Shown here in pieces: positions 5,535 through 34,901 of a stretch of DNA of 64,000 bases (the first letter of the stretch is position 1; each line of letters begins with the position of its first letter). The DNA is taken from NCBI GenBank assembly GCA_000002445.1, contig AE017150.2, positions 608,001 through 672,000 of the forward strand, written 5' to 3'. The notes below the pieces were generated by a model. It was given only the letters and a program-made list of their open reading frames with translations. It made no database searches and was not told the origin of the DNA. Position numbers and translations under genes: made by a program. The DNA is from Trypanosoma brucei. Its lineage: Eukaryota.

Positions 5535-5847
5535 ACTCACCTTCACTCTTGGACAAATGTGCAGTTTTTTTTTTTAAACAGCGAGTGTAAATAAGGAAAA
5601 CCAAAGAGAATAAAAATGATAATGAGTTGAATGAAAGTATATAGATTCATGAGATAAGGAAGAAGGTCTAGCAGCCTTTTCGTTGTTTTTGTTTTGTGGT
5701 AATACCTTACCTATATTTTTTTTAAAAATAAAGAATTGACACAATAGAGTAAATATTTTCGCTTGAAGAAGCCGTTGTTGATTTTCTCTTCCAGTCGTAA
5801 ATTCAGCTGATCGTTTAAAGCATCTATCTCTCACACTGTACGTCATC

Positions 5848-7765: not shown

Positions 7766-9079
7766 ATGATGAAGTATTTGCTGGTATTTGCAATTATTAC
7801 CACAAGAATCCCTGTGTTGTTAGTAATTGGCAGTGAGGATAACCGTGTTCCAGGAGACAAGAAGTTGACGAAAGAGGGAGCAGCGGCACTCTGTAAAATG
7901 AAGCATCTTGCTGATAAAGTTGCAGAGAAAGGAGCAGAGGACTTGAAGAAGAAAACTCAAAATTTTGCTGGTTTTATAGAGTTTGAGCAGGAGAAAGTTG
8001 ATAACTGGTTGGAGAAGCTGAGAAACCGGAAACAGTATAGCGACGGCTACGCTAAGCTATCTGATTCTGACGTTGAAAAAGTGAAGGAGATATTCGACAA
8101 GGCAAAAGATGGAATAACTAAACAACTCCCAGAAGCGGAGAAAGAGGCTAGAGAAGCTGAGAGGCTGTACGATGAAGTGAAGAAGGCGGCACAGGATGCA
8201 CGCGGACAGGATCTTGATGACGATACGGCGAAGTCCACGGGCTTGTACAGGGTGCTGAATTGGTACTGTATCACCAAAGACAACAACAAAGATATCACCC
8301 ACAATTGTGACGATGGGATCAAATTCAGAGATCATTATCTGTCGGTGAATAGAAGCGCTATTGACTGCAGCAGCACCGGCTATAAGGAGGATTATGATTG
8401 GTCTGCGAACGCGCTGCAGTCGGCTTTGAATGACTGGGAGAATGTGAAGCCAAAGGAAGTAAAACCAGAGAGCGGTGGTAATGACGTGTGCAAAAAGGAC
8501 GAATCTTCCGAGAGCCATCCGTGCACCATGACAGGAGGGTGGCAGACTCACTACAAGGATAGTATATTGAAGTTGAAAGAACTTGAAGATGCGCACAAAA
8601 GGGGAAAGGCGGCTCATGATGCTATGTTGGGTTACGCTAATACTGCACATGCGGCGAACACGAAAGTGGAACAGGAAAAGCCGCTGGCAGAGGTGATAAC
8701 GGCAGCCAAGGACGCAGGGAAAAAGGGCGCGAAAATTATAATACCCGCAGCTGCCCCAGCAACATCAACCGATAGCACAAAAAGTGAAGATAGTGCTCCA
8801 GCCGAGCATGTTGATAGAGGGATTGCAACAAATGAAACACAGGTGGAAGTTGGTATTGATGCTGACTTTGATAGTCTGCTGGAGGCCGCTGAAGCTGCCG
8901 AAGTAAAAAGCAGACATCAGAGAACAGCAATGATTATATTGGCAGTCCTTGTACCTGCCATTATTCTGGCTGCGGCCGTTGCATTCTTCATAATGGTGAA
9001 ACGAAGGAGGAATAGCTCCCAGGATGTGGACACTGGAAAAGCGGAGGGTGGGGTTTCTAGCGTAAAAGTAGTAATGTAG
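7766..9079 (+). CDS. ISG65: ISG65 family, divergent copy 3 (437 aa). The ectodomain is substantially diverged from copies 1 and 2. The first ~19 aa and the last ~130 aa (membrane-proximal region, TM and tail) are near-identical.
   Basis: Conserved Cys spacing is kept (CKMKHLADKVAE, WYC, IDCSSTGY, ESSESHPCTMT). The mature N-terminal region differs (VIGSEDNRVPGDKK versus ATNGGDKHVKANKK). The TM and tail are identical apart from LAAAVAF versus LVVTAVAF. Confidence 0.8.
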   Translation: MMKYLLVFAIITTRIPVLLVIGSEDNRVPGDKKLTKEGAAALCKMKHLADKVAEKGAEDLKKKTQNFAGFIEFEQEKVDNWLEKLRNRKQYSDGYAKLSDSDVEKVKEIFDKAKDGITKQLPEAEKEAREAERLYDEVKKAAQDARGQDLDDDTAKSTGLYRVLNWYCITKDNNKDITHNCDDGIKFRDHYLSVNRSAIDCSSTGYKEDYDWSANALQSALNDWENVKPKEVKPESGGNDVCKKDESSESHPCTMTGGWQTHYKDSILKLKELEDAHKRGKAAHDAMLGYANTAHAANTKVEQEKPLAEVITAAKDAGKKGAKIIIPAAAPATSTDSTKSEDSAPAEHVDRGIATNETQVEVGIDADFDSLLEAAEAAEVKSRHQRTAMIILAVLVPAIILAAAVAFFIMVKRRRNSSQDVDTGKAEGGVSSVKVVM

Positions 9080-11488
9080 ACTCACCTTCACTCTTATACA
9101 AATGTGCAGGTTTTTTTTTAAACAGCGAGTGTAAATAAAAAAAAAATAATAATGACAGTGAATTGAAAACAGCTGCATAGATCCGTGAGACAGGGAAGAA
9201 GTGCCGGCGACCTTTGCTTTTCTTTTTCCTTTTTTTCACTACTTTTATGGCCGTCCGTAAGGCGGTCTATAGAAAGGTAACGCCTTTCTGCGGAACGGTT
9301 TCCCACGCCGTAGTTGTTGTTTCCACCTTGCTCATCGTAAATGAGTGTTTCTACCGGAACTAACTGTCATGTAAACTATAAGCTTCTTCACCTCTTGCTA
9401 AACTAGGAGTTTCATGTTGCGACAATAAGCACATCCCTTGACGCACTCAGTGTTCTTTCCATACGGAAGTTGCCTGTGGTTTTCAATCTTTGAGAGGTAT
9501 TACCTTGTTTGTGGAATGTGGACCGGAGGGCGGTGGCGGAGACTGGTACCGGAAGGCCATTTGGCACTGTGTCTACCTGGTGGCGTCGTAGGGGGCACCG
9601 GGTAACGAGGCGAGGGCGCGATGTGGAGTCGCCTTTTGGGTCATGGGGTTTTTGTTTTACCGGGAGACATGGCTCCTTTTTTCGTCCGCCTCCACCTGGA
9701 CTCTTACTTCACGCTCTGCTTTCGCTTCCCATGTAACGCAAAGGCGCGGGGGCATTATGTACGATGCCGCAGGGGGCGGGTTGCTGGGCACATTCGTGTT
9801 CACATGACTGGCGCAGTTCCGTTAAGCTTAGAACGACCAACGCGGCTGGCATCTTCTCAAAAGAGCGTGGCGTTGGGGCGCTCCCCCGAATTTGCTCGGG
9901 AAGGTAATGCAGTACAATTTCTTCATCGTGACGAGGCGGGTTGTCTTCGGTCTCTTTGCTGGCTCACCGATGTGGGCGTACAGTCTCGTCCTTCCCGAGA
10001 AGTTTTTCGTGCAGCACTGACCTCTCTGGACAGGGAAATTTTACCACTCGTCAGAGCGCCGAAATGTAATGCCGTCGAAACTTCAGGAAGCCAAATCGTT
10101 ACTACTCCTTGAGGGTAAGGCGGTGAGACCTCTCCCCTCTGTTTTATTGGCTGTGGTTGCGTTTCCTCCACCACTGTTGGCGGCTTTTTTTTCCACTGCA
10201 TCTGTGAGCCCATTTTTTCCCCTTAGCTCCTTCGGGGCGCCATGCTGCAGCTGGCGGTCGACAATTTCTGGCAACCAATCTCTAATCTTCTTTGGAAACG
10301 ATTGTTGTGTAGCCCGCTAAAACCCTTCAGCGCGCTCTGTTAGCATCGCATCTACAGCTAAACATAACTCCTCTTTACAACTTTCGGTTCCAGCGCACGG
10401 AAGGTTAATTGCTTTTTCTGACATTTGGGAGCCGCACCGTGCATTTGTCTTCTCAGGCCTCTGAGGTTTTCGAGACGCAAAGCTGTTCCTCACCCCGGAG
10501 ATATCACAACCACTGATGCGGGGATGGATCCCCCATGAGCACTGCTTTGAAGCTTGTCGAGGTCCGTTTTCCTTTTTCTTTTCGGACGGGTGCCTGAATT
10601 CCTGCATGTGGTTCCTAAAGTTGGGGAAGCGCTTATTGGCGCTGTGTGCCAGCGGTCATGTGTAGTTTGCGCATTCATTCGTCCCGTGAGCGAGCCCCAA
10701 CGTAGCGGTGGGATCGTTGCAACAGAAGAGGAAGAGAAAGAGAGGTTGAAAGTCTATTCTAAGGCGGATATTGTTCCGGGTCTTTTCCCAAGAGCGTAAC
10801 CCTCTGGACACGCATTGTGTACGATTGGTCTTTGGACGCGAAAGGGTACGTTCAGCAAGGCCGCTCATACGGAACGCCCAACCAAAACGTTCCTGTTTCC
10901 GTCAAACCATTATGGAAAAGAAATTGCCAGTAGTTTGAAAGCATTTAACCAATGCAACACTTCTCACTCTTTTTCTTGAGTCCCCGTCTTTTGGCGATAT
11001 CTCCAATCTTACGCGGTGGTTACACTCGCACTTCCCCCTTTAATCCTTCAACCACACTGATTTTTCCTCTAATAATTATTAAGCACTACCTTAGCATAAG
11101 CAAGACCATCCGCTACCAGGGGTAAATGTGTCCTTGGCGACTTTTTCCCTACCCGCAGCATCCCCCCTTTTTTGTTTCAAAACCGACCCAAATCTATTTA
11201 AGGTAACGGAACAGCGTCAGTATACGCGCATGTATATATGCCCCTTTTTAAAAATCCATTCCTTCTGCCGCTGACCGAACAACACAAGGGTAGGGGACCG
11301 GAAAAGAAAGAAAACCAAACCCTCCAGAGACAGTGGGGGCCTCTTTAACAGGGCAAGGCCGCTGTTTACCGCAATAAAATCCTCGAAACAAATTTTCCAC
11401 GGAGAAGCTGCTTTGCCGCCTTGTGTCAGAAATGGCGGTGAATACTAGGAAGAAAAGAAAAAGATGTGATGGTGGGTCCTTTCCTCAG
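9080..11488. other. Convergent strand-switch region. The last + strand gene ends at 9079 and the first - strand gene's 3' end is at 11489. It contains a GC-rich island of about 1.4 kb at about 9500-10900.
   Basis: All supported CDS up to 9079 are on the + strand and all supported CDS from 11489 onward are on the - strand. The island's base composition is visibly GC-richer than any other non-coding stretch in the window. Confidence 0.75.
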
Positions 11489-12136
11489 TTACACCATTTC
11501 CACTCTCCTTGGATATCCCTGAACCCTCATTTGATGTTGTTGTTGTGTCAGCAGGCACCCCAAAATCATCTCTTGGAGGGCCAGCCAAGCCCCGGGAACA
11601 AAACGAGGATCCCATAACAACAATAACAACGGAAGGAAGCAGGCAGCCGCTATGACCACTGTGTTCACGAGACTTTCCTGAAGTCCATAGTGTTGAAGAA
11701 CCATGAACCGATTCGCAAACACGGCGCACCACGGGCAGCAGAAGACTTCCGTGCCCATACAACATTTTTCGAACCCATGACAAACACAGCATGAGCACTG
11801 GCCACACATACCACCAAAGCAGGTGTATTGTTGAAAGTCGCTTAGTAGTAGCGCTTCCCGTTGCGCATAGGCACAAAATATGGTACCAGCACAGGAACCC
11901 AAGCAAAAGCAGCAATCTTTACAAGGGGCGGTGATCATTCCTGTTTCCCACTCATTTTCGGACCCCGGCGCACCCGACGCTCCATCACCAAACCCTTGGC
12001 CGGGAGGAACGTACGTTGACTTGGGAGGTTGGGGATATCCCTGGCCTGGTTTTGAAATGTCAACTTCACCCACTACAGGTGCCATTTCAGTTTCCCTTCC
12101 CCCACTTGGGTAGCTTTGGGCGGGGTTTTCAGACAT
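11489..12136 (-). CDS. PLAC8-family (FW2.2/CNR-like) Cys-rich protein of about 215 aa, with a Pro/Gly-rich N-terminus and a hydrophobic C-terminal extension.
   Basis: Signature Cys clusters: WETGMITAPCKDCCFCLGSCAGTIFC and CCMGTEVFCCPWCAVFANR. Compare human PLAC8 ...WQTGMCDCFSDCGVCLCGTFCF... and CCPHCTLCQ. The track start at 12169 is GTG, so I reset it to the first ATG at 12136 (MSENPAQ...). Confidence 0.7.
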   Translation of the reverse strand: MSENPAQSYPSGGRETEMAPVVGEVDISKPGQGYPQPPKSTYVPPGQGFGDGASGAPGSENEWETGMITAPCKDCCFCLGSCAGTIFCAYAQREALLLSDFQQYTCFGGMCGQCSCCVCHGFEKCCMGTEVFCCPWCAVFANRFMVLQHYGLQESLVNTVVIAAACFLPLLLLLWDPRFVPGAWLALQEMILGCLLTQQQHQMRVQGYPRRVEMV

Positions 12137-12199
12137 GCAGCGTACTCTTGATTTTAAATTACTAACCACTGGTTGTGCAGAACCCGTAAGTGAAAAAGG

Positions 12200-15100
12200 C
12201 GAAGCGCTTTTACCATTTTCAGCAGGGGCGAACGGACCAGTGGTTTTATTAAATTGCGACTGGAAGAAAAAGTGACGTCACCAACCCGCTGACGAAACGG
12301 CGCGCGGACTATTCATTCTGAGATGGTCCGGAATTACGCTGAATAGTAAAAACAGCGATGGCGTACCTGGAAACGGCGTGTGGGTGTCTGCAGCGCAGTG
12401 CGGATCAACACCGTGCGGTATCATGATATTCACCACAGTTCCAAACGAATTTATATAAGGGAGTGCGTATGGAAAAATCCGGCGCCAAGTTTACAGCATT
12501 CTAGACGGTGTTAAAATTGCCCTCCTTTTACACGTTGACACAACTGTGGTATCAGCATCACTTTTTATGGTTCCCTTTACTCCGCCACAAAAGCAACTGC
12601 GCTTCTTAATACCGTAAAACGTTATAACTCCTTCTCCTTTCTCCATTGTTTGCTACCTCCCAATCACATGCCACTAAATCGTGGCGCAACCTTCTCCCCA
12701 TTTTCCGGTATGTCACTTCGCCACATCCAAATGAACTGGTACATTTTAATTTGTGGCGCCACATGTCTTTAATCAAATGTACCCATTGCTTCATTCCAAA
12801 CAACATATGTGCACAAATACGTCCCTCCCTATTCGCGTTTGGCGACGGAAATGGCAATATTCCCTTCTTTTTTTTCTTTTCCTCAACACCAACACGCTCC
12901 ACCCCGTAAGATCAAAATATTTCTTGTAAAGTCAAAACCATAATCCACCAGCTCCAATTGCTTTTACCGGTGTGGCGCCCGTCGTCTTTCCCCCCTCGTG
13001 AGAAGCGGCACCATCGGGGAAGTTTTGAGGGAGATGTGATGATATCGTGCATTTGAGCTTCAGTGCAAAGCGCAGAGCAGACAAACACACACGTAAAAGT
13101 GGTAAACATTGTTTAGAAATGAGACATCACTAAACCTTTCCTTTCTTTAGCGTTGGCACTTATTGAAACTTAAAACTGACAATACACCTTACATAATCCC
13201 TTTACGACTCCATTTCCCTTGTCGGCTGGGTAGTTTTTTTTTTCCCCCTTTTTCCCTCTTTTTGGAAGCTTCATTCCTCTCACCTATCGGAGTGTTTCAC
13301 CTGAATTAAGATGAGTAACCGGCATTATTCCTTCAGGTGTTCTGTGAAGTCCCTTAAACGGGATCCTATTATTATTATTATTGTTATTACAGTTAACGAG
13401 TCCGGATAAATAACTTCCCTTCATTGTTAGCGCACCTTCCCTCCACTATTCATCAGAATCAACAACATTTAACAACAACTGCAACGCACCTCGCTTTCCA
13501 ACACTCAACTGTTGAGAGTTTTTTTTTTCTTTTCCATCCTTGAGGCTTTAGCGTGTTATGAAATCGGGTCCGCTCAAATTGCGAGGCTTAAATTACCATT
13601 TATTTATTTTGCCCCCGTGTATGCAATAACATGTGCAAACCACCACGTATAGCCGGATGGAAAAAAATGATAATAATAAAATAAGGCGACATTATCCGAT
13701 AATTACGCACCATTTTCTCTTTACAATATCATTGGGAGTAAATTGTGCTCTCGTATGCGCGGCGAGATTACGAGACAATAGTGAAGTCAGAAAAAAAATA
13801 ATAATAATATAAACATGTTTTACCGGCAAAAGAAAAAAGCCGATTTAAAAGGAAATGTTTGTGCATTCCCTTACAGAAGTGAGGAATTGGAGGGGGGGGG
13901 GGAGGAATTATTGAGTCCGGTTACTGTTTTTTTTTTTAAATTAAATTTAATCTAATTTAACTTTATTATCCCCCATTGGAGTAAATTCACCTTCAGGGTT
14001 ACAAATATGAAGTGGAGGCGCAAACAAAAACATACCTCTGGTTGAAGTCCGCGACTGATACATTTATATTTGACCCCCACTTTTTTTTTTAAATCCTGAG
14101 GAAAAAAAAAAACTCAATAGTCGCTTATAATTCAATACAAAAACCTTTTTTTTTTTTTAAAGACGCGAGTTGCAACATTGCGGTTGCGCATGGAGAGGCT
14201 TCCAAAAGTTTGTTTGAGCTTACGGACGCGTGTATTTGTGGAAACTTTTGCATTTAAACTAAAAAGAAATAAATAAATAAATATATATTTCTATATTTAT
14301 ATATTTGAGCTTATGTAAGCAATTACCTTTTTTATATTCATGTACAAATGGAGGGGAGAGGATGGAAGAAAAAAAATAAAAAGAGAAGAAAAGAAAAGAG
14401 AAAATACCTGTGACTAGTAATTAAGCAAAACGAACCATTCACAGGATCTGGTAAATTAAAATAACAGCAGAAATAGAAAGAAAAGGAAAAAAAAAGGAGG
14501 AATTAAAATGGGTTCGTGAAGTTAATCTACCGTCCTGTTGGGTTTCGCTGTTGGACTCAACCCTCACTGTTACAATCATTAAAAGGAAAGAAAGAAAAAA
14601 AAAGAAAAAAAAACAAATACGAATAAATAAAAAAATTTTTGTACCGTTTAATTAATAAGCAGAAGTGAGTCGAAAACGTTCGCAAACAAACAAATAAATA
14701 AAAAGATGAGAGAAGCGAAGAGGGAAAATTAAAAAAAAAAATCAAGAAAAAAAAGAAGAAAAAGGAAAAAAAAAGCCCCCATCCGCTTTTTCTCTCCCCG
14801 TTTCCCGTCACTAAACATTTCCGTCCATTCCGCATTCCATATGTATGAAATAAGCAGTTGGGAGGAGAGCGGGTTATGTGGAAGGACTTAAATAAAAATA
14901 AGTGAACGAATAAACATGCGAACCACCACCAAAGTTACTACAACCACAACCACAACCACAACCACAACAAAAAAAAAACAACAATAAACCAAGGAGGAAG
15001 GAGAAAAAAAAAAGAGAAACAACAAAAACAAACAAACAAACGACATTGCCGTCGAAACCCCCACATGATAATTTGGGAAAATGTGTGCGAGTACGCGAAG

Positions 15101-15660
15101 GCAAAAATCCCCATTGTGTATACCCTCCTCACCTCCCGCTGTGATGCAGTACACGGGGTTAATCGATAAATTACAAAAAAAAATAATTAAGAAAACATAA
15201 ATGAAACAAATAAACAAAAGATATAAATAAAATAAATAAATAAATATATATGTAGGAGAGAACAGAAGTAAACACACACGAGAAAACAACAAAAACAACA
15301 ACAATTTGGAACGTAAATCGACCGCGCCTTGTACATTTCATTTCAGCTTTACCGCCACTTGCATCGTCAGTTCCCACATGCGCATCTGCCAATTCGCACA
15401 AGCAGCCATGCAGGCGGTTAGCCGACCCTCCGTGCGTAAATCAACATGTCCTAACCCATCCGTGTTGAGTGTGTAATACATACATGATTGCTAAACGGAC
15501 GAAAATGATAATAATAAAAATAATATTCAAACAAGTGGAAAATCGATGTTTTTCCTTTCCTTTACTTTCTTTTCTCTCATTTTTTTTCTCTTTTGTTGCG
15601 GTGGTCGCCCCCTTTTATTTAACTTAACACTCCCCTTCACCGGTAACTTTTACCAATTGG
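12200..15660. repeat. Low-complexity spacer of about 3.4 kb. It holds homopolymer runs (A/T tracts and G11 at about 13884), purine-rich tracts on the + strand (14560-15010), an (ACAACC)n run at 14938-14966, and AT microsatellites.
   Basis: Read directly from the sequence. ORFs called here (14557..14835, 14888..15304, 15171..15401) are Phe/Leu/Lys-rich translations of these tracts. Confidence 0.8.
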
Positions 15661-15668
15661 AGCCTAAA

Positions 15669-16802: not shown

Positions 16803-18204
16803 TTTCCGGATCGTATACCTAAAACAAGAGATTAAATAACAGCAACAATAATAATAACAGCAATAATAATAAAATCATCACATAATGATTAATTGTGGTG
16901 CCGCTACAGAGTAGAGGGTATTATTTCCACCAACACCTCACCGCCTTACGACTTACTTTCGGGGAGGGAAAACTGGGGAAGGGGGTTAGGAGGCGGGCTA
17001 AGCACCTCTTTTTTGTTTTGTTTTGTGTTTTTTTTTTCGATACGGACGAACTCCTTTTTGCATCCCCACATATGAGGGAGACCACGCTGCGTGAGGTGGA
17101 GCGTATAAGTAAAAAAGTAAAAAAATAAATAAATAAAATAATATATATATATATATATATACCATTGACGCCTAATCGTTTCCCCCCTTCCCCAACTCAG
17201 CAACCTTTCCTCATCTCCCCCCATTCACGTAAGTGAGTTGTAACAGCCAATTTGCGGAAACCTCCACTTATACGTCCAGATAAGTTACACCAGCCATAGA
17301 ATGGGTCATTCTCACAACATGGTGCTGGTACTTACGACATATATATATATATATATATATATTCATTTATATATACATAAATATATGTATACGTAAGTCC
17401 GCTTTTATATTATAGCTGGGTCTCGTGCTCCCGGTTGCGGTGGAGCGATTTGTCCCTTCTTCCTTCCCTTACATAAACTCTACACGTGAATGAGGGGGAA
17501 TGACCGCCCAAAGCATGAGTTAGTGTGCAACACGGCAAATGTGGATGATGTTCCTCACTCACTCACGCATGAGCAAGAACACACACACACAAAAAAAAGA
17601 AAAATAAATAAATAAAAGCAAGGGATATAGAAGGGTATTCACGCCACGCGCACATTAAAGCGCTTACATATATTTGTGCATTTACAAGGGACTTATTTTA
17701 TTGGCATCTACGAACGGGTACCATTTGGAGGTTCCAGCTTCACAAACACTGGGTTGTAGGGGCAGACACTTACTTTCACTTTTCGCACAATGGGGACTTC
17801 CCCCCCCCCCCTCGTAAGTACTAATGATGATCATGGATGCCCAAAGAATGAATTGGCGAGGCTTGAGCTAATACACACACATACACATACACGCACACAC
17901 ATACCTATATATAATTATATATGCAAATATATATATATATATATACGTATATATATTGTGTATACAATGTGAACAAGGGTAGCGAGAGAGGGCGCTTGGA
18001 CCCCTCGCCTATAGCAACAGCCCTCAGTTTCACATCATGCTTTGATAAACCTGTTCGAATAAGCACTACAGCGACTGCCACGTCCTTTACGTGCCCTTCA
18101 AAAAGCTCAGGTAAGCCGCAGTTACTGGACTTCCATTTGCGGCTTTTCATCGTTGATGGCCACCCTTTCTTTCCCTTTTCAACTTATAGGGCGATCACTT
18201 GCCT

Positions 18205-22088: not shown

Positions 22089-23649
22089 ACACCTTAGGGA
22101 CTTGTATAGTTACCGCAGTGCAGTTCTCCAATAATTTCCAACAAAGAAAGAAAGAAAGGAACCATGACAAATTACAATCTCACGAAGAGAGGTGCAGATT
22201 AAAATTGCTCCCCCGCACTCATACTTTTTTTTATTTTTTAAATTCTTTCTCGAATGTCCATACACAACTTGCGTTGAAGGAGGCAACGCACAAGACATTG
22301 AGACTGTGTTTTTGTTGCACTTTGCCCCGCGGTCAATAAGCCCCGACATTTTGTATAATATCCTTCTCTTCTCTTCTACTTTTTTTTCTTTTTAAATACC
22401 TTTTGCCGATGTTGTTTCGACGTACTCATTCTTCTGTAAAGGGCGGGATGCCGATCTCGCGCCAATCCGCCAGGAGGTTTCCCTCCGACCCGAGTCCCAT
22501 AACGCCGCTGAGGCCTCCCGTGGCAGTCGCTACAGCCGCCGCCCGTCGCATGCCTAAAGTTGGCGGGAGATTTGCAGGGAAGGCGAAACTTGAGGGATCA
22601 TCGAAGTCAACGAGTAACTCCAACTTGGGTTGTTGGATGGTAAGCGTAGCATCCTCTAAATACCAGCGGCGATGAATGTAACGGGAGTCCCTGGAAACCA
22701 TCACGACCTTTTCTTTTCTATCTCCCTCTCTCTCTCTCTCTTCTGTCTACTTCCTTTTTATCTTTCTTTTTTTTTTTTTGTGTGTGTGTGTGTGCGGACC
22801 CTTTTCTACTCCTCTGATTTTCTATTTAAGAAGCCTTTCCGTTGCGATCTCTGTAATGGAGTTACGCTTGCAAAAACTTCTATCGACGGCACATGCAACG
22901 GATTACGTGAATGCGGAAGGAATGCCAACATAAGAAAGCAACATAAATATATGAATGCTGGGAAAATGCATATAGAACGGTAGCCCCGCTGCGGAGCTAC
23001 AAACAAATTATAGGCGCCAGCGGATACACAAAACGTCGCAGCACTTAAATATCTCGGCTATCTGACGGTGCCCAATTCCGTCTCTTTTCCCTCTCGTTTG
23101 CGGCAGCGAGAAAACAAAAAGTCATGGGAATAGAATACACCCTGGAGGAATCCTGCGCCGCCTAAATACAAAGCCGCTCCGCTCAATGACGAAGAGGGCT
23201 AATGGTAGCAACGGATGGGAACGGATTTATGCGAATTGGTTGTCCAGTGGCATGCGCCACTCCACAGGACCGGGCACATCATATGAGGGTAATTCAGTGT
23301 AATGTAACAGAAGGGGAAGGCAACATAACAAAAAAAAGGAAGAAAGTACACCATGTACCTTACAACAAATCCAACTCCCTCCACATTCTGAGGCCAATAC
23401 CCATTTCCCCATGGGTACGACATTACGGCACGCGCCCGAAAAAAAGGGAAAAAATTGCTGCAAAAAGAAAATAGCAGCATCATACGGTCCGGCTCCACTT
23501 CACTCAAAACGGAAAAATAGTTAGGGTGAAGAAATCGGTTTGTATGAACAACATACGTGAGCGTATACATATATATATATATATATATATATTGCACAAA
23601 CGCTGGTCTCGCTCACACTCGTTTCAATTCGACATCAATCGAACTGATC

Positions 23650-24471
23650 TTATTCATACCGCACCCACCCCTGCACTGTGACATTATCCTTTTCACGTAC
23701 GGTACATGCCGTGCCATTGGGATTACATGACAAGTTAAGCACACGCGAGTAATTATGATACGGGCCTGGCCATGCTGTGTTTTCCCAGTTCTGTTCCGCT
23801 ACAAACATACGATCCCCTGTCACACCCGCAACAACGGCAACATGACCGTATGGAAAACCATTGGGTTGCCGTGGGTAAATCAACAAATCCCCCACACGCG
23901 GCTTAGAGTTTGCAGATGTTGCATTTCCGTTATGATATTTGAGTAATGGTTTCCGCTTTTGACCATTGAGCAGTTGAACATCTTTAAGATCCCAAATGTC
24001 AGCTGCTCCATCTACAGAACCAAAAGTGGCTGGTTGTGGTGTACCTCGAAGCATCCAATACCGTCGGGCATATTCCACGCATTGCCATTGCATACCATAT
24101 ATGGGTGGAACCGCATGAGGGTCCACACGACCAGCCGGTATCCGTATGTCTTCCACCTTGACAGTGTTCCAAAGTTCTGCTGTGCAACTATCACTGTTGC
24201 AATTGCTCATAGCTGGAACTCCGTTGTAAATTCCCAACACATTACCAAAAGGGGCCGAGCAATTCTGTTGGCAGCCCACTGAAAGACTCCCAGTGTTTGT
24301 ACTCACCGTATCTTTACTATTTTCCGCGCGAGGGACCTTCATAAGGCAGAGAATGATGACAACTCCCACAGCAAATGAGGCGCCTGCGTAAAGCTTATAT
24401 GAGTCGAAGTTTCTTGCCTCACCCTCACGTTGTAAAAGAGGTCTGGCGGTGCCTGCTTTCCTCGCCGCCAT
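23650..24471 (-). CDS. CHAP-domain protein (Cys/His amidohydrolase, like the glutathionylspermidine/trypanothione-synthetase amidase domain), 273 aa, with an N-terminal signal anchor.
   Basis: Catalytic-Cys motif QCVEYARRYW (compare Gsp/TryS amidase QCVEFARRF/W...). Catalytic-His motif GHVAVVAGVTGDRMFVAEQNW (compare GHVAIIT....IAEQN). Hydrophobic segment ASFAVGVVIILCLMKV near the N-terminus. N-glycosylation sequons (NGT, NYS, NLS, NVT) occur in the catalytic half. Confidence 0.8.
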   Translation of the reverse strand: MAARKAGTARPLLQREGEARNFDSYKLYAGASFAVGVVIILCLMKVPRAENSKDTVSTNTGSLSVGCQQNCSAPFGNVLGIYNGVPAMSNCNSDSCTAELWNTVKVEDIRIPAGRVDPHAVPPIYGMQWQCVEYARRYWMLRGTPQPATFGSVDGAADIWDLKDVQLLNGQKRKPLLKYHNGNATSANSKPRVGDLLIYPRQPNGFPYGHVAVVAGVTGDRMFVAEQNWENTAWPGPYHNYSRVLNLSCNPNGTACTVREKDNVTVQGWVRYE

Positions 24472-25648: not shown

Positions 25649-26491
25649 TTATTCATACCGCACCCACCCCTGCACTGTGACATTATCCTTTTCACGTACG
25701 GTACATGCCGTGCCATTGGGATTACATGACAAGTTAAGCACACGCGAGTAATTATGATACGGGCCTGGCCATGCTGCGTTTTCCCAGTTCTGTTCCGCTA
25801 CAAACATACGATCCCCTGTCACACCCGCAACAACGGCAACATGACCGCATGGAAAGCCGTTGGGTTGCCGTGGGTAAATCAACAAATCCCCCACACGCGG
25901 CTTAGAGTTTGCAGATGTTGCATTTCCGTTATGATATTTGAGTAATGGTTTCCGCTTTTGACCATTGAGCAGTTGAACATCTTTAAGATCCCAAATGTCA
26001 GCTGCTCCATCTACAGAACCAAAAGTGGCTGGTTGTGGTGTACCTCGAAGCATCCAATACCGTCGGGCATATTCCACGCATTGCCACTTTAAGCCGCTTT
26101 GGTAACTGGTTCCAGCCACTGTGACGTTGTTATACGTAGTGGTATTCTCTGTTGCACCACAGTTGCTGTAAGAGAAGACGCCCTCATGTGCGCCAAGAAT
26201 AGCACCGACTGGATTGAGGCAATGTTTTTCCACTTTGCCGCTGCCTTCGGGGTAGCGAATGCCAGAGTAAAGCACGCCAAAGGCAATGAAAGAAATAAAA
26301 AGAAGAACGAGTACGCCAAATGTCCAAGCGAATATCGCCTGGGCAATTGAGCATAGGCGTTTTATACCACGCTTCCGGTTGTTGAAAGAACCATTAATGG
26401 CTCCATCATTGGTTTCTGGGACATCGTGAGGATCTTTTTCGTTAGATGAAAGTCGATTAGTCTTCGATGTTACCGCTGGCTCTCTTTCCAT
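25649..26491 (-). CDS. CHAP-domain protein, paralog 2 (280 aa). It has a longer cytoplasmic N-terminus and a different TM anchor and stalk. Its C-terminal ~154 aa are identical to the paralog except for 2 residues.
   Basis: Same catalytic motifs (QCVEYARRYW and GHVAVVAG). TM segment AIFAWTFGVLVLLFISFIAFGVL. Nucleotide identity with 23628-24085 extends about 10 bp past the stop codon. Confidence 0.8.
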   Translation of the reverse strand: MEREPAVTSKTNRLSSNEKDPHDVPETNDGAINGSFNNRKRGIKRLCSIAQAIFAWTFGVLVLLFISFIAFGVLYSGIRYPEGSGKVEKHCLNPVGAILGAHEGVFSYSNCGATENTTTYNNVTVAGTSYQSGLKWQCVEYARRYWMLRGTPQPATFGSVDGAADIWDLKDVQLLNGQKRKPLLKYHNGNATSANSKPRVGDLLIYPRQPNGFPCGHVAVVAGVTGDRMFVAEQNWENAAWPGPYHNYSRVLNLSCNPNGTACTVREKDNVTVQGWVRYE

Positions 26492-27581: not shown

Positions 27582-28727
27582 TCACTGTTCAGCACCATCC
27601 ACCACCTTCTCAGTTTCCTCCTTGTCCTCATGAACTTCCCCAACTGGCGTTGTTCCGAGGGCCCGCTTCGCCAGCAGTTGCTTCTGAACCTCCTCAGGCA
27701 GTTGGCGAAACCAGTAATCAAGAATGCCTTTAGAGAACCTAACAATATGAGGTGGAAAACCATCAGATAGGAATTGGCCCACAGCCACCCCAATCTTGGT
27801 GCCTATAAGTTGTTTCAGGGTAACGTTTGCACTCGCCAAGGAGGAAAGTAAGGAAACAATACGTTCCTCGTTTGCGATGCTAACCTCAACAACGTCACCG
27901 TTCAGACATTCCATGTACGTCTCTGTAAGTTCCTTCCCTGTAGTTTCTAAAGTTGCGTTCGTCACATCATGACGGCTCTTGCGCAGCATATCCACAACAT
28001 AAGCCACGTCGTCGTCTGCAGATGCGGCAGATCCTTCCCTTCCCACAGTGTCGTACGTTGCATTAGGGAGGTCTCTACCATCTTCACGGCCTCGTTTCCT
28101 TTCGGTACGTTTGCCGTACTCATCATCACTGGAGCCACCAGCCAACTCGGACTCGGAGCTGTCGCCACCAAAGTCCCTCAGAGTCTTGATTTTTCGCTTT
28201 TTTCTGTGGCGCTGCCCACTTTCCTCACTTTTTGTCTCCTTCCTTGAGATGTGATGACGTCCTTCGTCTTCTTTCCGCCTCTCTTCCACATGCTTTGATG
28301 CACCTCTTCTTAACGATAGTTTCCGTCGTTGCGGTGCTTCAACCGCTTTTTGCTCTCCGCCGTCGGCGAATTCCGTTTTTACACCTCTAACCCTCCGTTC
28401 ATTTGTTCCTCCAGCTTGTGCCTTGAGTTGTTCTTCATATAGTTGTATCGCCTCTTCGATTGCGACCGCGCAGCTCGCGTCTAACTTTCCTTCTTCCATC
28501 ATTCCCTCATCTCGATCCGGAAGAAAATATCTAATTTGCCCCTCATCTTCGCTGTTGGCGGCTGAGAGAGTGAGGGAATCGCGAGGAAGACAACAAACCC
28601 ACACGTCTGACCCCTCAGGCAGTGTTATGTCCCTGACCTCGTCGGGGTCCATGACAAAACCCGGCCACCAGGGGAATCGATCCTGTTTCAACCACACAAG
28701 GGTCCCTGGAGCAAATGATGGAATCAT
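27582..28727 (-). CDS. PWWP-domain protein (382 aa from the first ATG) with a C-terminal TFIIS N-terminal-type (TND/LW) domain and no TFIIS domains II/III or Zn ribbon.
   Basis: PWWP motif VWLKQDRFPWWPGFV near the N-terminus. The C-terminal segment SLASANVTLKQLIGTKIGVAVGQFLS parallels LASVSVTLRQLLRTKIGVSVSRALS of the neighbouring TFIIS paralog. The ORF-track start at 28787 is GTG. The first ATG (MIPSFAPG...) is at 28727. Confidence 0.7.
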   Translation of the reverse strand: MIPSFAPGTLVWLKQDRFPWWPGFVMDPDEVRDITLPEGSDVWVCCLPRDSLTLSAANSEDEGQIRYFLPDRDEGMMEEGKLDASCAVAIEEAIQLYEEQLKAQAGGTNERRVRGVKTEFADGGEQKAVEAPQRRKLSLRRGASKHVEERRKEDEGRHHISRKETKSEESGQRHRKKRKIKTLRDFGGDSSESELAGGSSDDEYGKRTERKRGREDGRDLPNATYDTVGREGSAASADDDVAYVVDMLRKSRHDVTNATLETTGKELTETYMECLNGDVVEVSIANEERIVSLLSSLASANVTLKQLIGTKIGVAVGQFLSDGFPPHIVRFSKGILDYWFRQLPEEVQKQLLAKRALGTTPVGEVHEDKEETEKVVDGAEQ

Positions 28728-30765
28728 TTTTTTTCTTTTCCCCCCGTGGCTGGATGGGTTCAAAATGATGTCCCGACTGGTGTGCACATGTTTTTTTTAC
28801 CCGGTAATTGTAATATATGTAATGTATATATAAATATATATACGTATACGTGGTGGTGTGTGTGTGTGGGAGGGGGGGGGGAGGTGAGTAAAGTATGAGA
28901 GGAAAAAAAGAAAAAGAAAAGGAGAAAGAACAGAGGAGTTGAGAGACACTGACTTGTGAAAAGTAAACTCAAATAAAGCAGGATGGGACCAGGAACTGGA
29001 AAACGTGCAGGGGTAAAGGGAGTTAATGTACTGCTCCACCTCGTTATTACGCCCTTGTTGTTATTTTCCGTTTAGTTTATTTATTTGTAGGGGGACAAAC
29101 AAAACAACGTGCTATAGGGAGGGTGGAGATTTCCACCGGTCTACAGTAGTGTGACAACAAATCGCACGGATATAAGTAGAAAAAAAAACTAAAGAAAATG
29201 AAAGAAAGCTCGCAAGGGTGGAGATTTTTAGAAATACGGTAATAGCATTGTTGGCTTTTCTTTTTCTCTTAACCTCTTGTTTGATGTACAAACACTCGTG
29301 GGGGTTCATTTACCTTTTGAATTCTTTCTGTATTTCCCCTTCAATGCGTGCTAATATATTTAAGAATATATTTCAATTGAAGAAGTATTCTTTCTCAGAA
29401 TCCACTCCACCATCCCCCACCTTTGGCTTCGGCTTTGGTCTCGTCTTTCTTTTTTTTTTTTTTGTAGCCTTCATGTATTTACATATTCCCTTCACTCGGA
29501 CGCTTGATCTGGCCTTTTTTTTCTTTACGTTTTACTCTACTTCCCCTTTTAAAATTCTTTGCAAATCAATATGTTGCTTCCGGCTCCCTCTTCGTCTCTT
29601 CCTCTTTTTTTTCCGTTATTTCTCTTTCAATGTTATAAAAGGAAATAAAAAATTCACAAGGCGACTCCACCGTCGACATGATGTACTGAAACACGTAGAC
29701 ATCTGAAGATAAGGAATAATAATAGTAATAATAAAGGCGAAGAGTAAAACACACGCACACACACAAAGCCCAAGGGAAGAGGAAAAAAAAAGGTATAAAT
29801 CAATACATACATTTTATGTGTGTACATGCCACACGTAAAATAAAGAAAGAAAGTAAAAGCAAAAACGTGCATTTGGTGCGGCGGCAAATGGGAACAACAA
29901 AAACAACAAAAGAAAATTGCGTAAAGGATACTCGTGGGGGCTTCGCTGTACGGGGGCAGAAGGAAACCCAGTGGCATGAAACTAATATATATATATATAT
30001 AATTAATTAATTATTTATTTATTATATTTCCTTCAAAGTTTCCCCCTCTGGCGTTTCAATCTTGCTTTTGGTTCTTATCCCCATTCTCATTTTCACTCTC
30101 CTCGCTTTCATTTTCCCCTTTTCTTCTCTTCTCTTTTTTTTCCTTTTCAAATTTAAGCTTGCTTTTGTCTCTTGAACTTAGCCGAAGATACGTTACCGTA
30201 AATAATCGCCTGAAAAAGATGTTAAAAAGCAAATTCTTCTTTCCGTCCTTTTTTTTTTTGAAAAATAAAACAAGCACATCCCTGTTGACTTCTTTTCCCT
30301 TCACTTCTCTTTTAGACCGCATAAAGTAACTCCTCTTCCGTTGGGCGTAAAACAGAATATGAAGAGAAAAAAAAAAGAAGGTGAAGGTGAAGGTAAAGGA
30401 AGAAACAGGGTACTCAAGAAAAAAAAAACGCAAAAAAAAACTACAAAAGCAAAATCAACGGCAAAGCAGTGTTTTTCCTTTTTTTTGATTCCTTCACCGC
30501 ATTTCACATTCTCTTCTGGTGACAAACTGAGGCTCAGGCTCCACCATAAGAGAATATGAAAAAAAACATACAAGAAAAAAGAAAAAAATAGTAACGGTAG
30601 ATAAGTAAGTGACGCCAAGTGAATTAATACATATATCCTGATCGGCATTAATTTACTTGGCATTATTCGTTAAACAGCACGTGTGCTCATAAAAAAAGAA
30701 AAAGAAAGAAAAACATCGGTGCAAGATAAGTAAGGACAAATGCAATGATACGCACGGTAGTGACA

Positions 30766-33497: not shown

Positions 33498-34901
33498 CTA
33501 ATTCTCTGACCAATTATGTTTGCACTTAATGCACTTAATAAATTTAGTTGTCGGTTCATCCGCTGACCGGATCTGTAGTTCTCTCCATTCACATTCCCTT
33601 CCGTGACACTCCGGGCATTCAAAAAGTGAGGTGGTATGCAACAGCGACCGCTCGGTTTCTTCCAAGTTTCTTAGTTTCTCCGTAGTTCGGCGCTCTGCGT
33701 CCTCTTTTTCCTCTTGCGTCATTAGTTCCCAGCGACTGAGTTCGAGAAAATCCTTTCCACTCAGCTCCCCCATCGCCAGCCTGCGCCGTATTTCTGATAA
33801 CCCCGGTTTACTCAAATGCTCCAAAAGATACATGCGGTCCTCCGATCTTGTTACCTCAGCGCATATTTTTTCCGCTACAGATCTGAGATCATCACTTCTA
33901 ACACTAAAACTATGCGGATCCCCCGGTTGGAGAAGCAGCTTCTGCACCCGGTCAACAAACTGTGGTTGTGCCCCTCCTCCAATAGTAATTGGGTTGCCCA
34001 CGCTTTCACTTGTTGACGGTGTTGCCACATCCCGTTCCTCCCTCGTTTGTGAACTGGAAATGGTTCCCCGTCTTTTGTTATGGCGTGCACCGCCGCTCCG
34101 CGCCGTCCCCCCTCTTTTTTTGGCTTCCTGCTCGTACTTGTTGTACTCTTCAATTGCTCTCACAGTTTCCTCCGGTAGTTTGGCTGTCCAAGCGGAGATG
34201 ATACAAGTAGCCAGGCTCCTTTGTTCTTCTAGATCCTTTTTTGACAAGGCCCTTGAAACCGACACACCAATTTTTGTGCGCAAAAGCTGCCGGAGTGTAA
34301 CACTGACGCTCGCAAGTTTCAGAAGCGTGCTGGTAAGCAGAGCCCCGTCGCAGTTATCAGTGGCTTCATCAATATCTTTTTTCCATTGCACCAGTGCGTC
34401 GTCCGATGCGGGGGATAAGTGAGAGCCGGTACTCCTCTGTCGCATCCGGCTCACCTCACGGCTGCGTTTGCCCCCTGCAGTTTGCTGAGTGGCATTGTTA
34501 AGCGAACCCGCTCGCCCGCTTGTCGAAAACGCCCTCTGTGATGTTCCCCTCGGCGCCGTATTTTTTGAATGAGTCGGCTCAAATCGCAATGCGTTGGACT
34601 CCTTGTCCTCCTCTGCGTTACGAATAGCTTGCAGAAGATCCTCATTGGCGGTGACGGCTTTCTCAGATGAGGGCTCAAAAAATGTAATGGCGGAGGAGTG
34701 GCTGTCAACATTTTTATAGGTGGCCTTATTTTGGGTTCCTGGATACGTGAGAACGGTAACCGTAGATGTGCCAGTTTCTGACGACCTTCCGTCAACTCCC
34801 TCCACACCGGTAACTGAAGTGACTTTTGCCGGCCACCACGTGTTAGCTCCAGTCTTTAGCCAGACACGGTCGTTAATATGAAATACTCTTTCTTGAAGCA
34901 T
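33498..34901 (-). CDS. TFIIS2-2: Transcription elongation factor TFIIS paralog with an N-terminal PWWP domain (467 aa). The architecture matches the PWWP-containing trypanosome TFIIS2-2.
   Basis: N-terminal RVWLKTGANTWWPAKV (PWWP). Central TFIIS-N domain. Acidic-loop/domain III region. C-terminal Zn ribbon CPECHGRECEWRELQIRSADEPTTKFIKCIKCKHNW, with the canonical RSADEP motif and four Cys. ATG checked. Confidence 0.85.
   Translation of the reverse strand: MLQERVFHINDRVWLKTGANTWWPAKVTSVTGVEGVDGRSSETGTSTVTVLTYPGTQNKATYKNVDSHSSAITFFEPSSEKAVTANEDLLQAIRNAEEDKESNALRFEPTHSKNTAPRGTSQRAFSTSGRAGSLNNATQQTAGGKRSREVSRMRQRSTGSHLSPASDDALVQWKKDIDEATDNCDGALLTSTLLKLASVSVTLRQLLRTKIGVSVSRALSKKDLEEQRSLATCIISAWTAKLPEETVRAIEEYNKYEQEAKKRGGTARSGGARHNKRRGTISSSQTREERDVATPSTSESVGNPITIGGGAQPQFVDRVQKLLLQPGDPHSFSVRSDDLRSVAEKICAEVTRSEDRMYLLEHLSKPGLSEIRRRLAMGELSGKDFLELSRWELMTQEEKEDAERRTTEKLRNLEETERSLLHTTSLFECPECHGRECEWRELQIRSADEPTTKFIKCIKCKHNWSEN

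What the first reader, a model, noticed from the sequence alone, without database searches (positions are those of the whole stretch)
9500..10900. GC-rich ORF-less island of about 1.4 kb in the convergent strand-switch region
The + strand ISG65 array and the - strand polycistron converge here. The intervening DNA is not the usual AT-rich low-complexity spacer. It is a compositionally distinct, GC-rich block of non-repetitive sequence with no ORF over about 160 codons in any frame and no tRNA-like T-loop motif that I could find. Convergent strand-switch regions in trypanosomatids are pol II termination sites and often hold pol III genes, retroelement relics or pseudogenes. This island could be a decayed retroelement, a pseudogene remnant, or a structured non-coding RNA locus.
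Basis: seen in the sequence. Interest (0 to 1): 0.55.

Follow-up and report, generated by a model that had tools for sequence, protein, structure and literature searches.

The report
GC-rich transcription-termination zone, already annotated
The GC-rich block is real, but it is the already-annotated and already-studied meeting point of two converging gene arrays on Trypanosoma brucei chromosome 2, where low-level 'junk' transcripts are made and destroyed; only its high GC content remains unexplained.

Summary
The window is T. brucei brucei TREU927 chromosome 2. In detail: 9500-10900 is 53.5% GC, against 36.8 +/- 4.2% (max 46%) for other non-ORF DNA and 49.4% for coding DNA. It is single-copy and non-repetitive, and has no tRNA, B-box or Rfam match.

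It is not unannotated. Its 163-codon ORF is gene Tb927.2.3330 ('T. brucei spp.-specific protein'). In T. b. gambiense a second, 183-codon minus-strand ORF is annotated. That ORF carries a stop codon or a frameshift in three of the four strains compared.

The island varies between strains at the spacer rate (1.8%; coding 0.3-1.1%). ORFs of this length are expected by chance in DNA this GC-rich.

Published work already covers the locus. An RBP33 RIP-qPCR amplicon maps to 10544-10801. Tb927.2.3330 RNA is scarce, is scored as the last ORF of its transcription unit, and rises 8.7-fold on CTR9 depletion.

Best reading: the termination and overlap zone of a convergent strand-switch region, giving non-productive, surveillance-degraded transcripts. 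A young orphan gene or an old gene relic cannot be excluded. Low interest.

The parts
7766..9079 (+). Last ISG65 copy of the + strand array. I assign it to Tb927.2.3320 from the gene numbering and from the primer description in PMC4162612; the ISG65 protein itself was not matched to an accession.
   Evidence: 437-aa ORF; Pfam PF11727 ISG65-75, E=3.5e-97; PMC4162612 calls the region 'SSR downstream gene Tb927.2.3320'.
9080..9201 (+). ISG65 3' flank shared with the other array copies. Array similarity ends at 9201.
   Evidence: 78-79% identity to 1992-2121 and 5535-5665.
9210..9246 (+). Polypyrimidine tract. Inferred processing signal: polyadenylation of ISG65 mRNA and a trans-splice acceptor for whatever RNA lies downstream.
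   Evidence: Tract scan. The function is inferred from the general trypanosome coupling of trans-splicing and polyadenylation, not tested.
9450..10950 (.). GC-rich, single-copy island (formal left edge of the high-GC segment is 9518). It drifts at the spacer rate.
   Evidence: GC 0.49-0.58. 27 variable sites = 1.80% among four T. brucei-group sequences, against 1.57-1.85% in spacers and 0.31-1.08% in CDS.
9621..10112 (+). 163-codon ORF, the annotated gene Tb927.2.3330 ('T. brucei spp.-specific protein'). Probably a chance ORF; a young orphan gene is not excluded.
   Evidence: Exact match to XP_951588.1. Length P=0.05-0.07 against shuffles. Codon score 0.005, within the spurious-ORF range. pN/pS 0.45-0.57 on 7-8 changes. 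Both indels are 3 nt. pLDDT 35.9. No PDB match.
10317..10868 (-). Minus-strand ORF annotated as a 183-aa gene in T. b. gambiense DAL972. In TREU927 it is broken by a TGA at 10656-10658.
   Evidence: L003 gene call at 10697-11248. Position 10658 is A in the window and in OVI (L002), G in L001. L001 has a 1-nt deletion at 10397. Only a self-hit among 1.84e9 proteins. pN/pS about 1.
10086..10316 (-). 77-codon stop-free segment without an ATG, in frame behind the TAG at 10317-10319, which shows no difference in the three-way comparison. It is the only piece with gene-like codon usage (weak hint).
   Evidence: Codon score 0.186. Null P=0.0065 per segment, about 0.11 after 18 segments.
10544..10801 (.). 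Published qRT-PCR amplicon used to show that RBP33 binds transcripts from this SSR.
   Evidence: Primers AE691/AE692 from PMC4162612 supplementary file 4 map uniquely with 0 mismatches to 10544-10565 (+) and 10779-10801 (-).
10719..10752 (-). Minus-strand polypyrimidine tract. Inferred signal for polyadenylation of the Tb927.2.3340 mRNA and for a cryptic downstream trans-splice site.
   Evidence: Tract scan. Function inferred.
10951..11488 (-). Strongly conserved block downstream of the Tb927.2.3340 stop codon. Probably its 3' UTR.
   Evidence: 1 variable site in 538 nt (0.19%), against about 9 expected at the spacer rate. My own Poisson estimate from those counts is P about 0.001.
11489..12136 (-). 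First gene met on the minus-strand side: a PLAC8-like Cys-rich protein of 215 aa. I assign it to Tb927.2.3340 from the gene numbering; the accession-level match is to T. equiperdum TEOVI_000211700.
   Evidence: Exact match to TEOVI_000211700, and 42%-identical paralogues named 'PLAC8 family'. Pfam itself gave no hit.

Best explanation
The island is the termination and overlap zone of a convergent strand-switch region on T. brucei chromosome 2, between the last ISG65 gene (Tb927.2.3320, + strand) and the PLAC8-like gene Tb927.2.3340 (- strand). Pol II from both polycistronic units runs past the last productive processing sites into this 1.5-kb stretch. Those sites are inferred to be the + strand pyrimidine tract at 9210-9246 and the - strand tract at 10752-10719, the latter following the conserved 3340 3' block. 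The resulting RNAs are scarce and polyadenylated; as a class such RNAs are trans-spliced. They are non-productive: they are bound by the nuclear protein RBP33 and, as shown for this class of cSSR transcripts, degraded by the exosome. Sense/antisense overlap also yields a few DCL2-dependent siRNAs. The two gene models inside it (Tb927.2.3330 on +; a 183-codon ORF on - in T. b. gambiense) are most likely chance ORFs, which appear readily because stop codons are rare in GC-rich DNA. Shown here: the composition, the lack of homology, structure and repeats, the spacer-like divergence, and the position of the published amplicon. Taken from papers: RBP33 binding, low abundance, CTR9 sensitivity. Inferred: the processing sites and that termination occurs here. 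Not explained: why the block is 53-58% GC.
For: Identity of the locus. Convergent layout. [quoted passage not shown] 58 of 59 cSSRs are over-expressed on RBP33 depletion, and such transcripts are trans-spliced, stabilised on depletion and exosome-degraded (PMC9757043). siRNAs were found at all 49 surveyed convergent units, including Tb927_02 CTU3 at 615.5-623 kb (101 reads, both strands, 94% DCL2-dependent) (PMC3447711). Spacer-like divergence of 1.80%. The minus ORF is broken in three of four strains. ORF length is within chance, and spurious ORFs of up to 197 aa occur inside real genes of this window. No Pfam, Rfam, tRNA or folding signal.
Against: It does not explain the GC content. In this window every other GC-rich segment is coding, including a 91-codon ORF at 22426-22701, so the composition argues for present or past coding. 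ORF 3330 is intact in all four strains, and both of its indels are 3 nt while most indels outside it are not. Its ATG-ORF length is marginal (P=0.05-0.07). The real gene 3340 also fails the codon and periodicity tests, so those tests lack power for lineage-specific genes. Equating Tschudi's CTU3 with this locus rests on position only. No H3.V, H4.V, base J or run-on data for this locus could be inspected.
Confidence: 0.55

Rival explanations
1. Tb927.2.3330 is a real, young, T. brucei-group-specific protein-coding gene, the last gene of the + strand unit, and its coding nature explains the GC-rich, non-repetitive composition of the left half of the island.
For: Annotated in TREU927, DAL972 and T. 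b. equiperdum. The ORF is intact in all four sequences, and both indels inside it are 3 nt (9996, 10105) while five of the six indels outside it in the SSR are not multiples of 3. ATG-ORF length P=0.05-0.07. Polyadenylated RNA is detected and regulated (PMC3332058, PMC8648117). A pyrimidine tract lies upstream at 9210-9246. pN/pS of 0.45-0.57 is similar to the neighbouring real genes. GC-rich means coding everywhere else in the window.
Against: The codon score of 0.005 lies inside the spurious-ORF distribution and below all 15 conserved genes. Periodicity is 1.49 against a CDS median of 3.5. pN (0.011-0.014) exceeds that of every real-gene comparison (0.000-0.008). No homologue outside the T. 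brucei group is named in the public annotation. No Pfam or PDB match. pLDDT is 35.9. The RNA level is about a sixth of the median. The Arg/Cys-rich sequence looks like a translation of GC-rich DNA (my own reading of the sequence). It cannot explain the right half of the island, where the only ORF is broken in three of four strains.
Confidence: 0.2
2. The island is the decayed relic of one or two former protein-coding genes (last genes of the converging units). It is now neutral, with homology to any parent lost or the parent itself lineage-specific and gone.
For: Coding-like GC and non-repetitive complexity, unlike any other spacer. Very few indels compared with ordinary spacers. The minus frame 10901-10086 is open for 272 codons with only one or two stops, and it is visibly dying in different ways in different strains: a TGA in TREU927 and OVI, a frameshift in T. 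b. equiperdum. The 77-codon segment 10086-10316 has gene-like codon usage. Neutral divergence rate.
Against: No homologue for the 112-aa minus segment in 1.84e9 proteins. No Pfam domain in any frame. No 3-base periodicity (island 1.36). The codon hint is not significant after multiple testing (about 0.11). There is no similarity to the flank of the PLAC8 paralogue. A relic old enough to lose all homology would be expected to have lost its GC excess as well, yet its GC exceeds the coding mean (this last point is my inference).
Confidence: 0.15
3. The GC-rich composition is itself functional or mechanistically caused at the DNA or chromatin level. Examples: a nucleosome-favouring block that helps deposit H3.V/H4.V and base J to stop pol II, or a by-product of thymine modification and repair in J-rich chromatin that erodes T:A pairs.
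For: The location is exactly between the last processing signals of two converging units. The sequence drifts freely while GC stays high in all four strains. G3+ runs are twice the window average (16.7 against 7.8 per kb). Hairpin+T-run motifs are mildly enriched on the + strand at 9295-10000 (8 against 3.5 +/- 1.7). H3.V, H4.V and base J are known to mark cSSRs (PMC4721609, PMC4721952).
Against: No data for this locus. No paper found describes GC-rich cSSRs as a class. There are no G-quadruplex motifs in the island. Polarised substitutions show no W>S excess (4 against 6). With one SSR in the window the generality cannot be tested. The four strains are too close for composition conservation to mean anything.
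Confidence: 0.07
4. A structured non-coding RNA gene, a pol III gene or a retroelement fragment.
For: Convergent SSRs in trypanosomes often hold tRNA genes and sometimes retroelements (PMC9757043).
Against: No Rfam family at gathering thresholds, and in permissive mode all E-values are 0.3 or higher. No tRNA. No B-box. Folding z-scores average -0.29 and +0.27, with a minimum of -2.5 in 68 windows. Spacer-like divergence. No RT or endonuclease domain. Single copy.
Confidence: 0.03

Closest known systems
Convergent strand-switch regions (cSSRs / transcription termination sites) of T. brucei that give RBP33-bound, exosome-degraded non-productive transcripts
   Same: Two pol II polycistronic units converge here. 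RNA is scarce in wild type. Transcripts from this very SSR were shown to be bound by RBP33, with the amplicon at 10544-10801. The last-ORF RNA rises when the Paf-complex subunit CTR9 is depleted. The gene models within are 'hypothetical / species-specific', as is typical of RBP33 targets.
   Different: No tRNA genes, unlike many cSSRs. The striking 53-58% GC, non-repetitive composition has not been described as a feature of the class in the papers I could search.
siRNA-producing convergent transcription units (Tschudi et al. 2012, CTU3 on chromosome 2)
   Same: Convergent overlap, reads on both strands in equal numbers, and DCL2 dependence.
   Different: It is among the weakest loci (101 reads). 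Identity with this locus is inferred from coordinates only (615.5-623 kb of a 1.19-Mb chromosome).
Lineage-specific orphan ('T. brucei spp.-specific') gene models at the ends of polycistronic units
   Same: Tb927.2.3330 carries exactly this label, is the last ORF of its unit, is poorly expressed and has no homologues named outside the group.
   Different: Whether it is translated at all is unknown. Its statistics are those of a chance ORF, and its counterpart on the other strand is broken in most strains.
Degenerate retroelements (DIRE, ingi/RIME relics) at trypanosome strand-switch regions
   Same: The location at a strand switch and a composition unlike spacer DNA.
   Different: No reverse-transcriptase or endonuclease remnant in any frame, single copy, and no terminal repeats or target-site duplications seen.

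Membership tests
T. brucei convergent SSR / pol II termination region | Flanking polycistronic units transcribed towards each other | tested here: met
   ISG65 array on + up to 9079; every convincing gene from 11489 onward is on -.
T. brucei convergent SSR / pol II termination region | Enrichment of H3.V, H4.V and base J | not testable with these tools
   No ChIP or J-IP data are accessible. Tb927.2.3340 appears in the TTS-adjacent gene table of PMC4721952, which is only indirect.
T. brucei convergent SSR / pol II termination region | Low-abundance SSR-derived transcripts bound or controlled by RBP33 | tested here: met
   The published RIP-qPCR primers for this SSR map uniquely inside the island at 10544-10801. 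The binding itself is the paper's result, not mine.
T. brucei convergent SSR / pol II termination region | DCL2-dependent siRNAs from both strands | tested here: inconclusive
   CTU3 on chromosome 2 (615.5-623 kb) fits by position: 46 top and 55 bottom reads, and dcl2-/- at 5.8% of wild type. The window's chromosomal coordinates could not be verified.
Protein-coding gene (Tb927.2.3330) | ORF longer than expected by chance for its composition | tested here: inconclusive
   Stop-free run of 168 codons, P about 0.2; ATG-ORF of 163 codons, P=0.05-0.07.
Protein-coding gene (Tb927.2.3330) | Purifying selection (pN/pS clearly below 1; frame preserved) | tested here: inconclusive
   pN/pS is 0.45-0.57 on 7-8 substitutions. 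There are two in-frame 3-nt indels and the ORF is intact in four strains. The divergence is too low to decide.
Protein-coding gene (Tb927.2.3330) | Codon usage and 3-base periodicity like known genes of the genome | tested here: not met
   Codon score 0.005 against 0.097-0.282 for the 15 true genes; periodicity 1.49 against a median of 3.5. Caveat: the real gene 3340 also fails both tests.
Protein-coding gene (Tb927.2.3330) | Homologues, domains or a confident fold | tested here: not met
   The 90%-identity cluster holds only T. brucei-group members. No Pfam match, no PDB match, pLDDT 35.9. The large-database search that included this ORF failed its positive control and is not counted.
Protein-coding gene (Tb927.2.3330) | Evidence of translation (ribosome footprints, peptides) | not testable with these tools
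   The gene is not found in the held supplements of PMC3973304 or PMC4285177. Those files may be truncated.
Pseudogene of a known gene family | Detectable similarity to a parent gene or domain | tested here: not met
   The 112-aa segment of the best frame hits only the T. b. gambiense copy of itself among 1.84e9 proteins. All six frames have no Pfam hit. There is no similarity to the rest of the window or to the paralogue locus. Frames other than the one searched were not scanned exhaustively against a protein database.
Non-LTR retroelement relic (ingi/RIME/DIRE/SLACS) | Remnants of reverse-transcriptase, endonuclease or RNase H coding sequence | tested here: not met
   Six full frames of 9202-11488 against Pfam at E<=1 gave nothing, and the control scored 3.5e-97.
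Non-LTR retroelement relic (ingi/RIME/DIRE/SLACS) | Nucleotide similarity to element consensus sequences; multiple genomic copies | not testable with these tools
   No trypanosome repeat library or whole genome is available. Within the 64-kb window the sequence is single-copy.
tRNA / pol III gene | Cloverleaf, or internal A/B-box promoter | tested here: not met
   ARAGORN finds 0 genes. The B-box pattern has no match in 9000-11600.
Structured ncRNA (any Rfam family, including T. brucei snoRNAs) | Covariance-model match or thermodynamic stability beyond shuffles | tested here: not met
   0 hits at gathering score. In permissive mode only chance-level hits with E>=0.3. Folding z-scores are around 0.

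The most novel reading that the evidence does not exclude
The GC-rich, sequence-unconstrained block is a compositional signature of pol II termination chromatin. One version: it is a nucleosome-favouring platform for depositing H3.V, H4.V and base J where no tRNA gene is present. Another version: it is a mutational footprint of long-term thymine hydroxylation and glucosylation (base J synthesis and repair) that erodes T:A pairs at termination sites. If this holds across T. brucei cSSRs, it would be the first sequence-level determinant, or evolutionary scar, of polycistron termination in trypanosomes.
Probability: 0.06. Interest if true: 0.6.

Novelty: already known. Interest (0 to 1): 0.15.

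Why it matters
As it stands, little changes. The locus is annotated (Tb927.2.3330) and was used experimentally as an example of a convergent strand-switch region whose transcripts are bound by RBP33. Two modest points have value. First, the gene models in the island are weakly founded, and one of them is demonstrably decaying across strains. That is useful for curation and a caution against counting such ORFs as 'species-specific proteins'. Second, the composition is odd for non-coding trypanosome DNA. If other tRNA-free cSSRs share it, that would point to a sequence or mutational component of pol II termination, for which no DNA determinant is known.

Tried and rejected
(1) Six-frame concatenated pseudo-protein search. 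It returned nothing although it contained the exact Tb927.2.3330 sequence, which is in the database. The positive control therefore failed, and I discarded the result as evidence.

(2) Distant synteny with T. congolense, T. vivax or T. cruzi. The two nearest anchors (the PLAC8-like gene, and the 761-aa gene) returned only T. brucei-group proteins. Exact-match look-ups of ISG65, the galactosyltransferase-like gene and paralogue P0003 found nothing. No distant orthologous locus could be fetched.

(3) Joining the two best minus-frame segments, or submitting the frame with its stops, to the exhaustive HMMER job. Only the 112-aa segment was searched.

(4) Segmental-duplication origin. The flank of the PLAC8 paralogue (L004) is unrelated and not GC-rich.

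(5) Supplement searches of base J / H3.V / PJW papers and of ribosome-profiling and mRNA-decay papers for Tb927.2.3330. Nothing was found in the held text. Only 3340 appears, in PMC4721952.

(6) Polarising strain differences to see whether GC is decaying. There were too few sites: 4 W>S against 6 S>W.

(7) G-quadruplex motifs: none in the island.

(8) Bacterial-type promoter and terminator scan. It is not meaningful for a trypanosome and is kept only as a side note.

(9) AlphaFold on the 163-aa ORF. The model has low confidence, so no fold search was attempted.

(10) Codon-usage and periodicity tests proved to have low power, because the real neighbour 3340 also fails them.
Full report
**Where the window comes from.** The island's 163-codon ORF (9621-10112, +) is identical to XP_951588.1, gene Tb927.2.3330 of Trypanosoma brucei brucei TREU927, named 'T. 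brucei spp.-specific protein', on a 1,193,948-bp contig (chromosome 2). The adjacent minus-strand ORF (11489-12136) is identical to a T. equiperdum protein and has 42%-identical 'PLAC8 family' paralogues. By gene numbering I take it to be Tb927.2.3340, and the last ISG65 copy (7766-9079) to be Tb927.2.3320. Three related assemblies carry the locus at 98-99.6% identity: T. b. equiperdum (L001), T. equiperdum OVI (L002) and T. b. gambiense DAL972 (L003).

**1.
- Layout: three ISG65 ORFs lie on the + strand, and every convincing gene from 11489 onward is on the - strand.
- Composition: 9500-10900 is 53.5% GC. All other non-ORF 1.4-kb windows give 36.8 +/- 4.2% (maximum 46%), and the coding mean is 49.4%. 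CpG observed/expected is unremarkable at 0.96.
- Uniqueness: in a maximal-segment scan every other large high-GC segment lies 82-100% inside long ORFs. The segment 9518-12418 is only 22% ORF.
- Repeats: the block is single-copy. It has no tandem or direct repeats, and similarity to the ISG65 repeat unit stops at 9201.
- RNA genes: there is no tRNA, no B-box and no Rfam match at curated or permissive thresholds.
- ORFs: the longest ATG-ORF is 163 codons and the longest stop-free run is 168.

**2a. Coding tests on ORF 3330.** A stop-free run of 168 codons is what dinucleotide shuffles of the same DNA give (146 +/- 34; P about 0.2). The 163-codon ATG-ORF is marginal (P=0.05-0.07). Real genes of this window contain 13 spurious antisense or out-of-frame ATG-ORFs of at least 90 aa, the longest 197 aa. 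ORF 3330's in-frame codon score (0.005) lies within that spurious distribution (-0.03 +/- 0.07) and below all 15 conserved genes (0.097-0.282). Three-base periodicity is 1.36 for the island, against 7.9-18 for 1.5-kb coding blocks.

These two tests have low power. The real lineage-specific gene 3340 also fails them (codon score 0.010, periodicity 0.85). No Pfam domain is found in any of the six complete frames of 9202-11488, while an X-interrupted ISG65 control scored 3.5e-97. There is no PDB match, and AlphaFold gives pLDDT 35.9.

**2b. The minus-strand frame.** The minus frame 10901-10086 is open for 272 codons apart from a TGA (10656-10658) and a TAG (10317-10319). In T. b. gambiense the part corresponding to 10317-10868 is annotated as a 183-aa gene. 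In TREU927 and OVI it carries the TGA. T. b. equiperdum lacks that stop but has a 1-nt deletion at 10397. An exhaustive HMMER search of its 112-aa segment against 1.84 billion representative proteins found only the gambiense copy of itself. A 77-codon tail (10086-10316) has gene-like codon usage (0.186), but this is not significant after correction (about 0.11).

**2c. Constraint.** Variable sites among the four sequences:

| Region | Variable sites |
|---|---|
| Island, 9450-10950 | 1.80% |
| Ordinary spacers | 1.57-1.85% |
| Coding sequences | 0.31-1.08% |
| 10951-11488 (next to the 3340 stop) | 0.19% (1 in 538) |

The island therefore drifts like spacer. The 10951-11488 block is unusually conserved and is probably the 3340 3' UTR. 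pN/pS for ORF 3330 is 0.45-0.57, but on only 7-8 changes, so it is undecidable. In its favour, both indels inside it are 3 nt and it is intact in all four strains.

**2d. RNA structure and origin.** Folding z-scores across 9000-11600 average -0.29 (+ strand) and +0.27 (- strand), with a minimum of -2.5 in 68 windows. There is no excess structure. The flank of a PLAC8 paralogue (L004) shares nothing with the island and is not GC-rich, so the island is not the relic of a duplicated neighbour.

**3. What is already published on this locus.**
- Fernandez-Moya et al. [quoted passage not shown] RBP33 is a nuclear protein whose loss de-represses convergent-SSR RNAs. The primers (supplementary file 4) map uniquely and perfectly to 10544-10565 (+) and 10779-10801 (-), inside the island.
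- Ouna et al. [quoted passage not shown]
- In acoziborole-resistant, procyclic-like cells (stranded poly(A)+ libraries), 3330 and 3340 fall together, with log2 changes of -3.66 and -3.33 (PMC8648117).
- Gomez-Linan et al. 2022 (PMC9757043) show that 58 of 59 cSSRs are over-expressed on RBP33 depletion. The RNAs are trans-spliced, are stabilised on depletion, and are degraded by the exosome.
- Tschudi et al. 2012 (PMC3447711) found DCL2-dependent siRNAs at all 49 surveyed convergent units. CTU3 on chromosome 2 (615.5-623 kb; 46 + 55 reads; dcl2-/- at 5.8% of wild type) fits this locus by position, which I could not verify.

**4. Most likely mechanism (confidence 0.55).** The island is the overlap and termination zone between the last productive processing sites of two converging pol II units. 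I infer those sites from the + strand pyrimidine tract at 9210-9246 and the - strand tract at 10752-10719, the latter following the conserved 3340 3' block. Polymerases that run on produce scarce, processed but non-productive RNAs from both strands. RBP33 and the exosome remove them, and a trickle is diced into siRNAs. The gene models inside are most likely chance ORFs favoured by the scarcity of stop codons in GC-rich DNA.

This account does not explain the GC content. Because every other GC-rich block in the window is coding, including a 91-codon ORF at 22426-22701, two rivals stay open:
- a young orphan gene (0.20);
- an old gene relic (0.15).

A compositional or chromatin role, or a mutational footprint of base J, is possible but unsupported (0.07). 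A structured ncRNA, a pol III gene or a retroelement is essentially excluded (0.03).

**5. Comparison and novelty.** The locus is a member of the known class of T. brucei convergent SSRs that yield RBP33-controlled non-productive transcripts. Convergence and the RBP33 amplicon position were checked here. The chromatin marks could not be checked. It is already annotated and has already been used experimentally, so I rate it 'already known'. The one feature not described in the papers I could search is its coding-like GC content without coding-like constraint.

**6. Limits.**
- No distant orthologous locus could be obtained.
- One large search failed its positive control and is discarded.
- Only one of the six frames was searched exhaustively.
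- No trypanosome repeat library or functional-genomics track was available.
- The four strains are too close (under 2% divergence) to resolve selection on a 492-nt ORF.

Noticed in passing
window 10951-11488 (-): The block immediately downstream of the Tb927.2.3340 stop codon has 1 variable site in 538 nt among four T. brucei-group sequences (0.19%, against 1.6-1.9% in spacers; my Poisson estimate is P about 0.001). It ends near a minus-strand pyrimidine tract at 10752-10719. It is probably a constrained 3' UTR with regulatory content.
   Followed up: partly
window 22426-22701 (-): A 91-codon ORF (MVSRDSRYIHRRWYLEDATL...) that was not in the 150-aa ORF list. It forms the only other GC spike outside long ORFs (GC 0.59), is flanked by (GA)n and A-rich spacer, and has a gene-like codon score of 0.108. 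The RNA fold z-score is +0.94, so it is not a structured RNA. Its identity was not determined.
   Followed up: partly
window 10086-10316 (-): A 77-codon stop-free segment without an ATG, in frame behind the TAG at 10317-10319 (no difference there in the three-way comparison). It has the most gene-like codon usage in the SSR (0.186; 2 of 308 null segments reach it; about 0.11 after multiple testing). It may be the last trace of an old reading frame.
   Followed up: partly
window 9295-10000 (+): GC-hairpin-plus-T-run motifs are mildly enriched in the SSR (8 against 3.5 +/- 1.7 in shuffles), and six of them lie on the + strand in the left half of the island. The scan is designed for bacteria, and no role is known for trypanosome pol II.
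   Followed up: no
window 12170-15668 and 16803-18204: Ordinary AT-rich spacers are extremely indel-prone between strains (395 and 63 gapped positions), while the GC-rich island has only 5. Low-complexity slippage accounts for most structural variation here.
   Followed up: no
L001 15894-16271; L003 6230-6607: In T. b. equiperdum and T. b. gambiense a 125-aa gene is called between ISG65 copies. ISG65 array spacing also differs between assemblies: L001 has an extra copy-length interval next to the island-proximal copy.
   Followed up: no
window 23650-24471 / 25649-26491 and 27582-28787 / 33498-34901 (-): Two tandem gene pairs lie in the minus-strand unit: two CHAP-domain proteins (E about 1e-13 each) and two PWWP + TFIIS-type proteins.
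   Followed up: no
tool behaviour: A 3131-aa query made of six-frame segments joined by XXXXX returned no hits, although it contained an exact database sequence. Concatenated X-linked queries appear to break that search, so negative results from such queries should not be trusted.
   Followed up: yes
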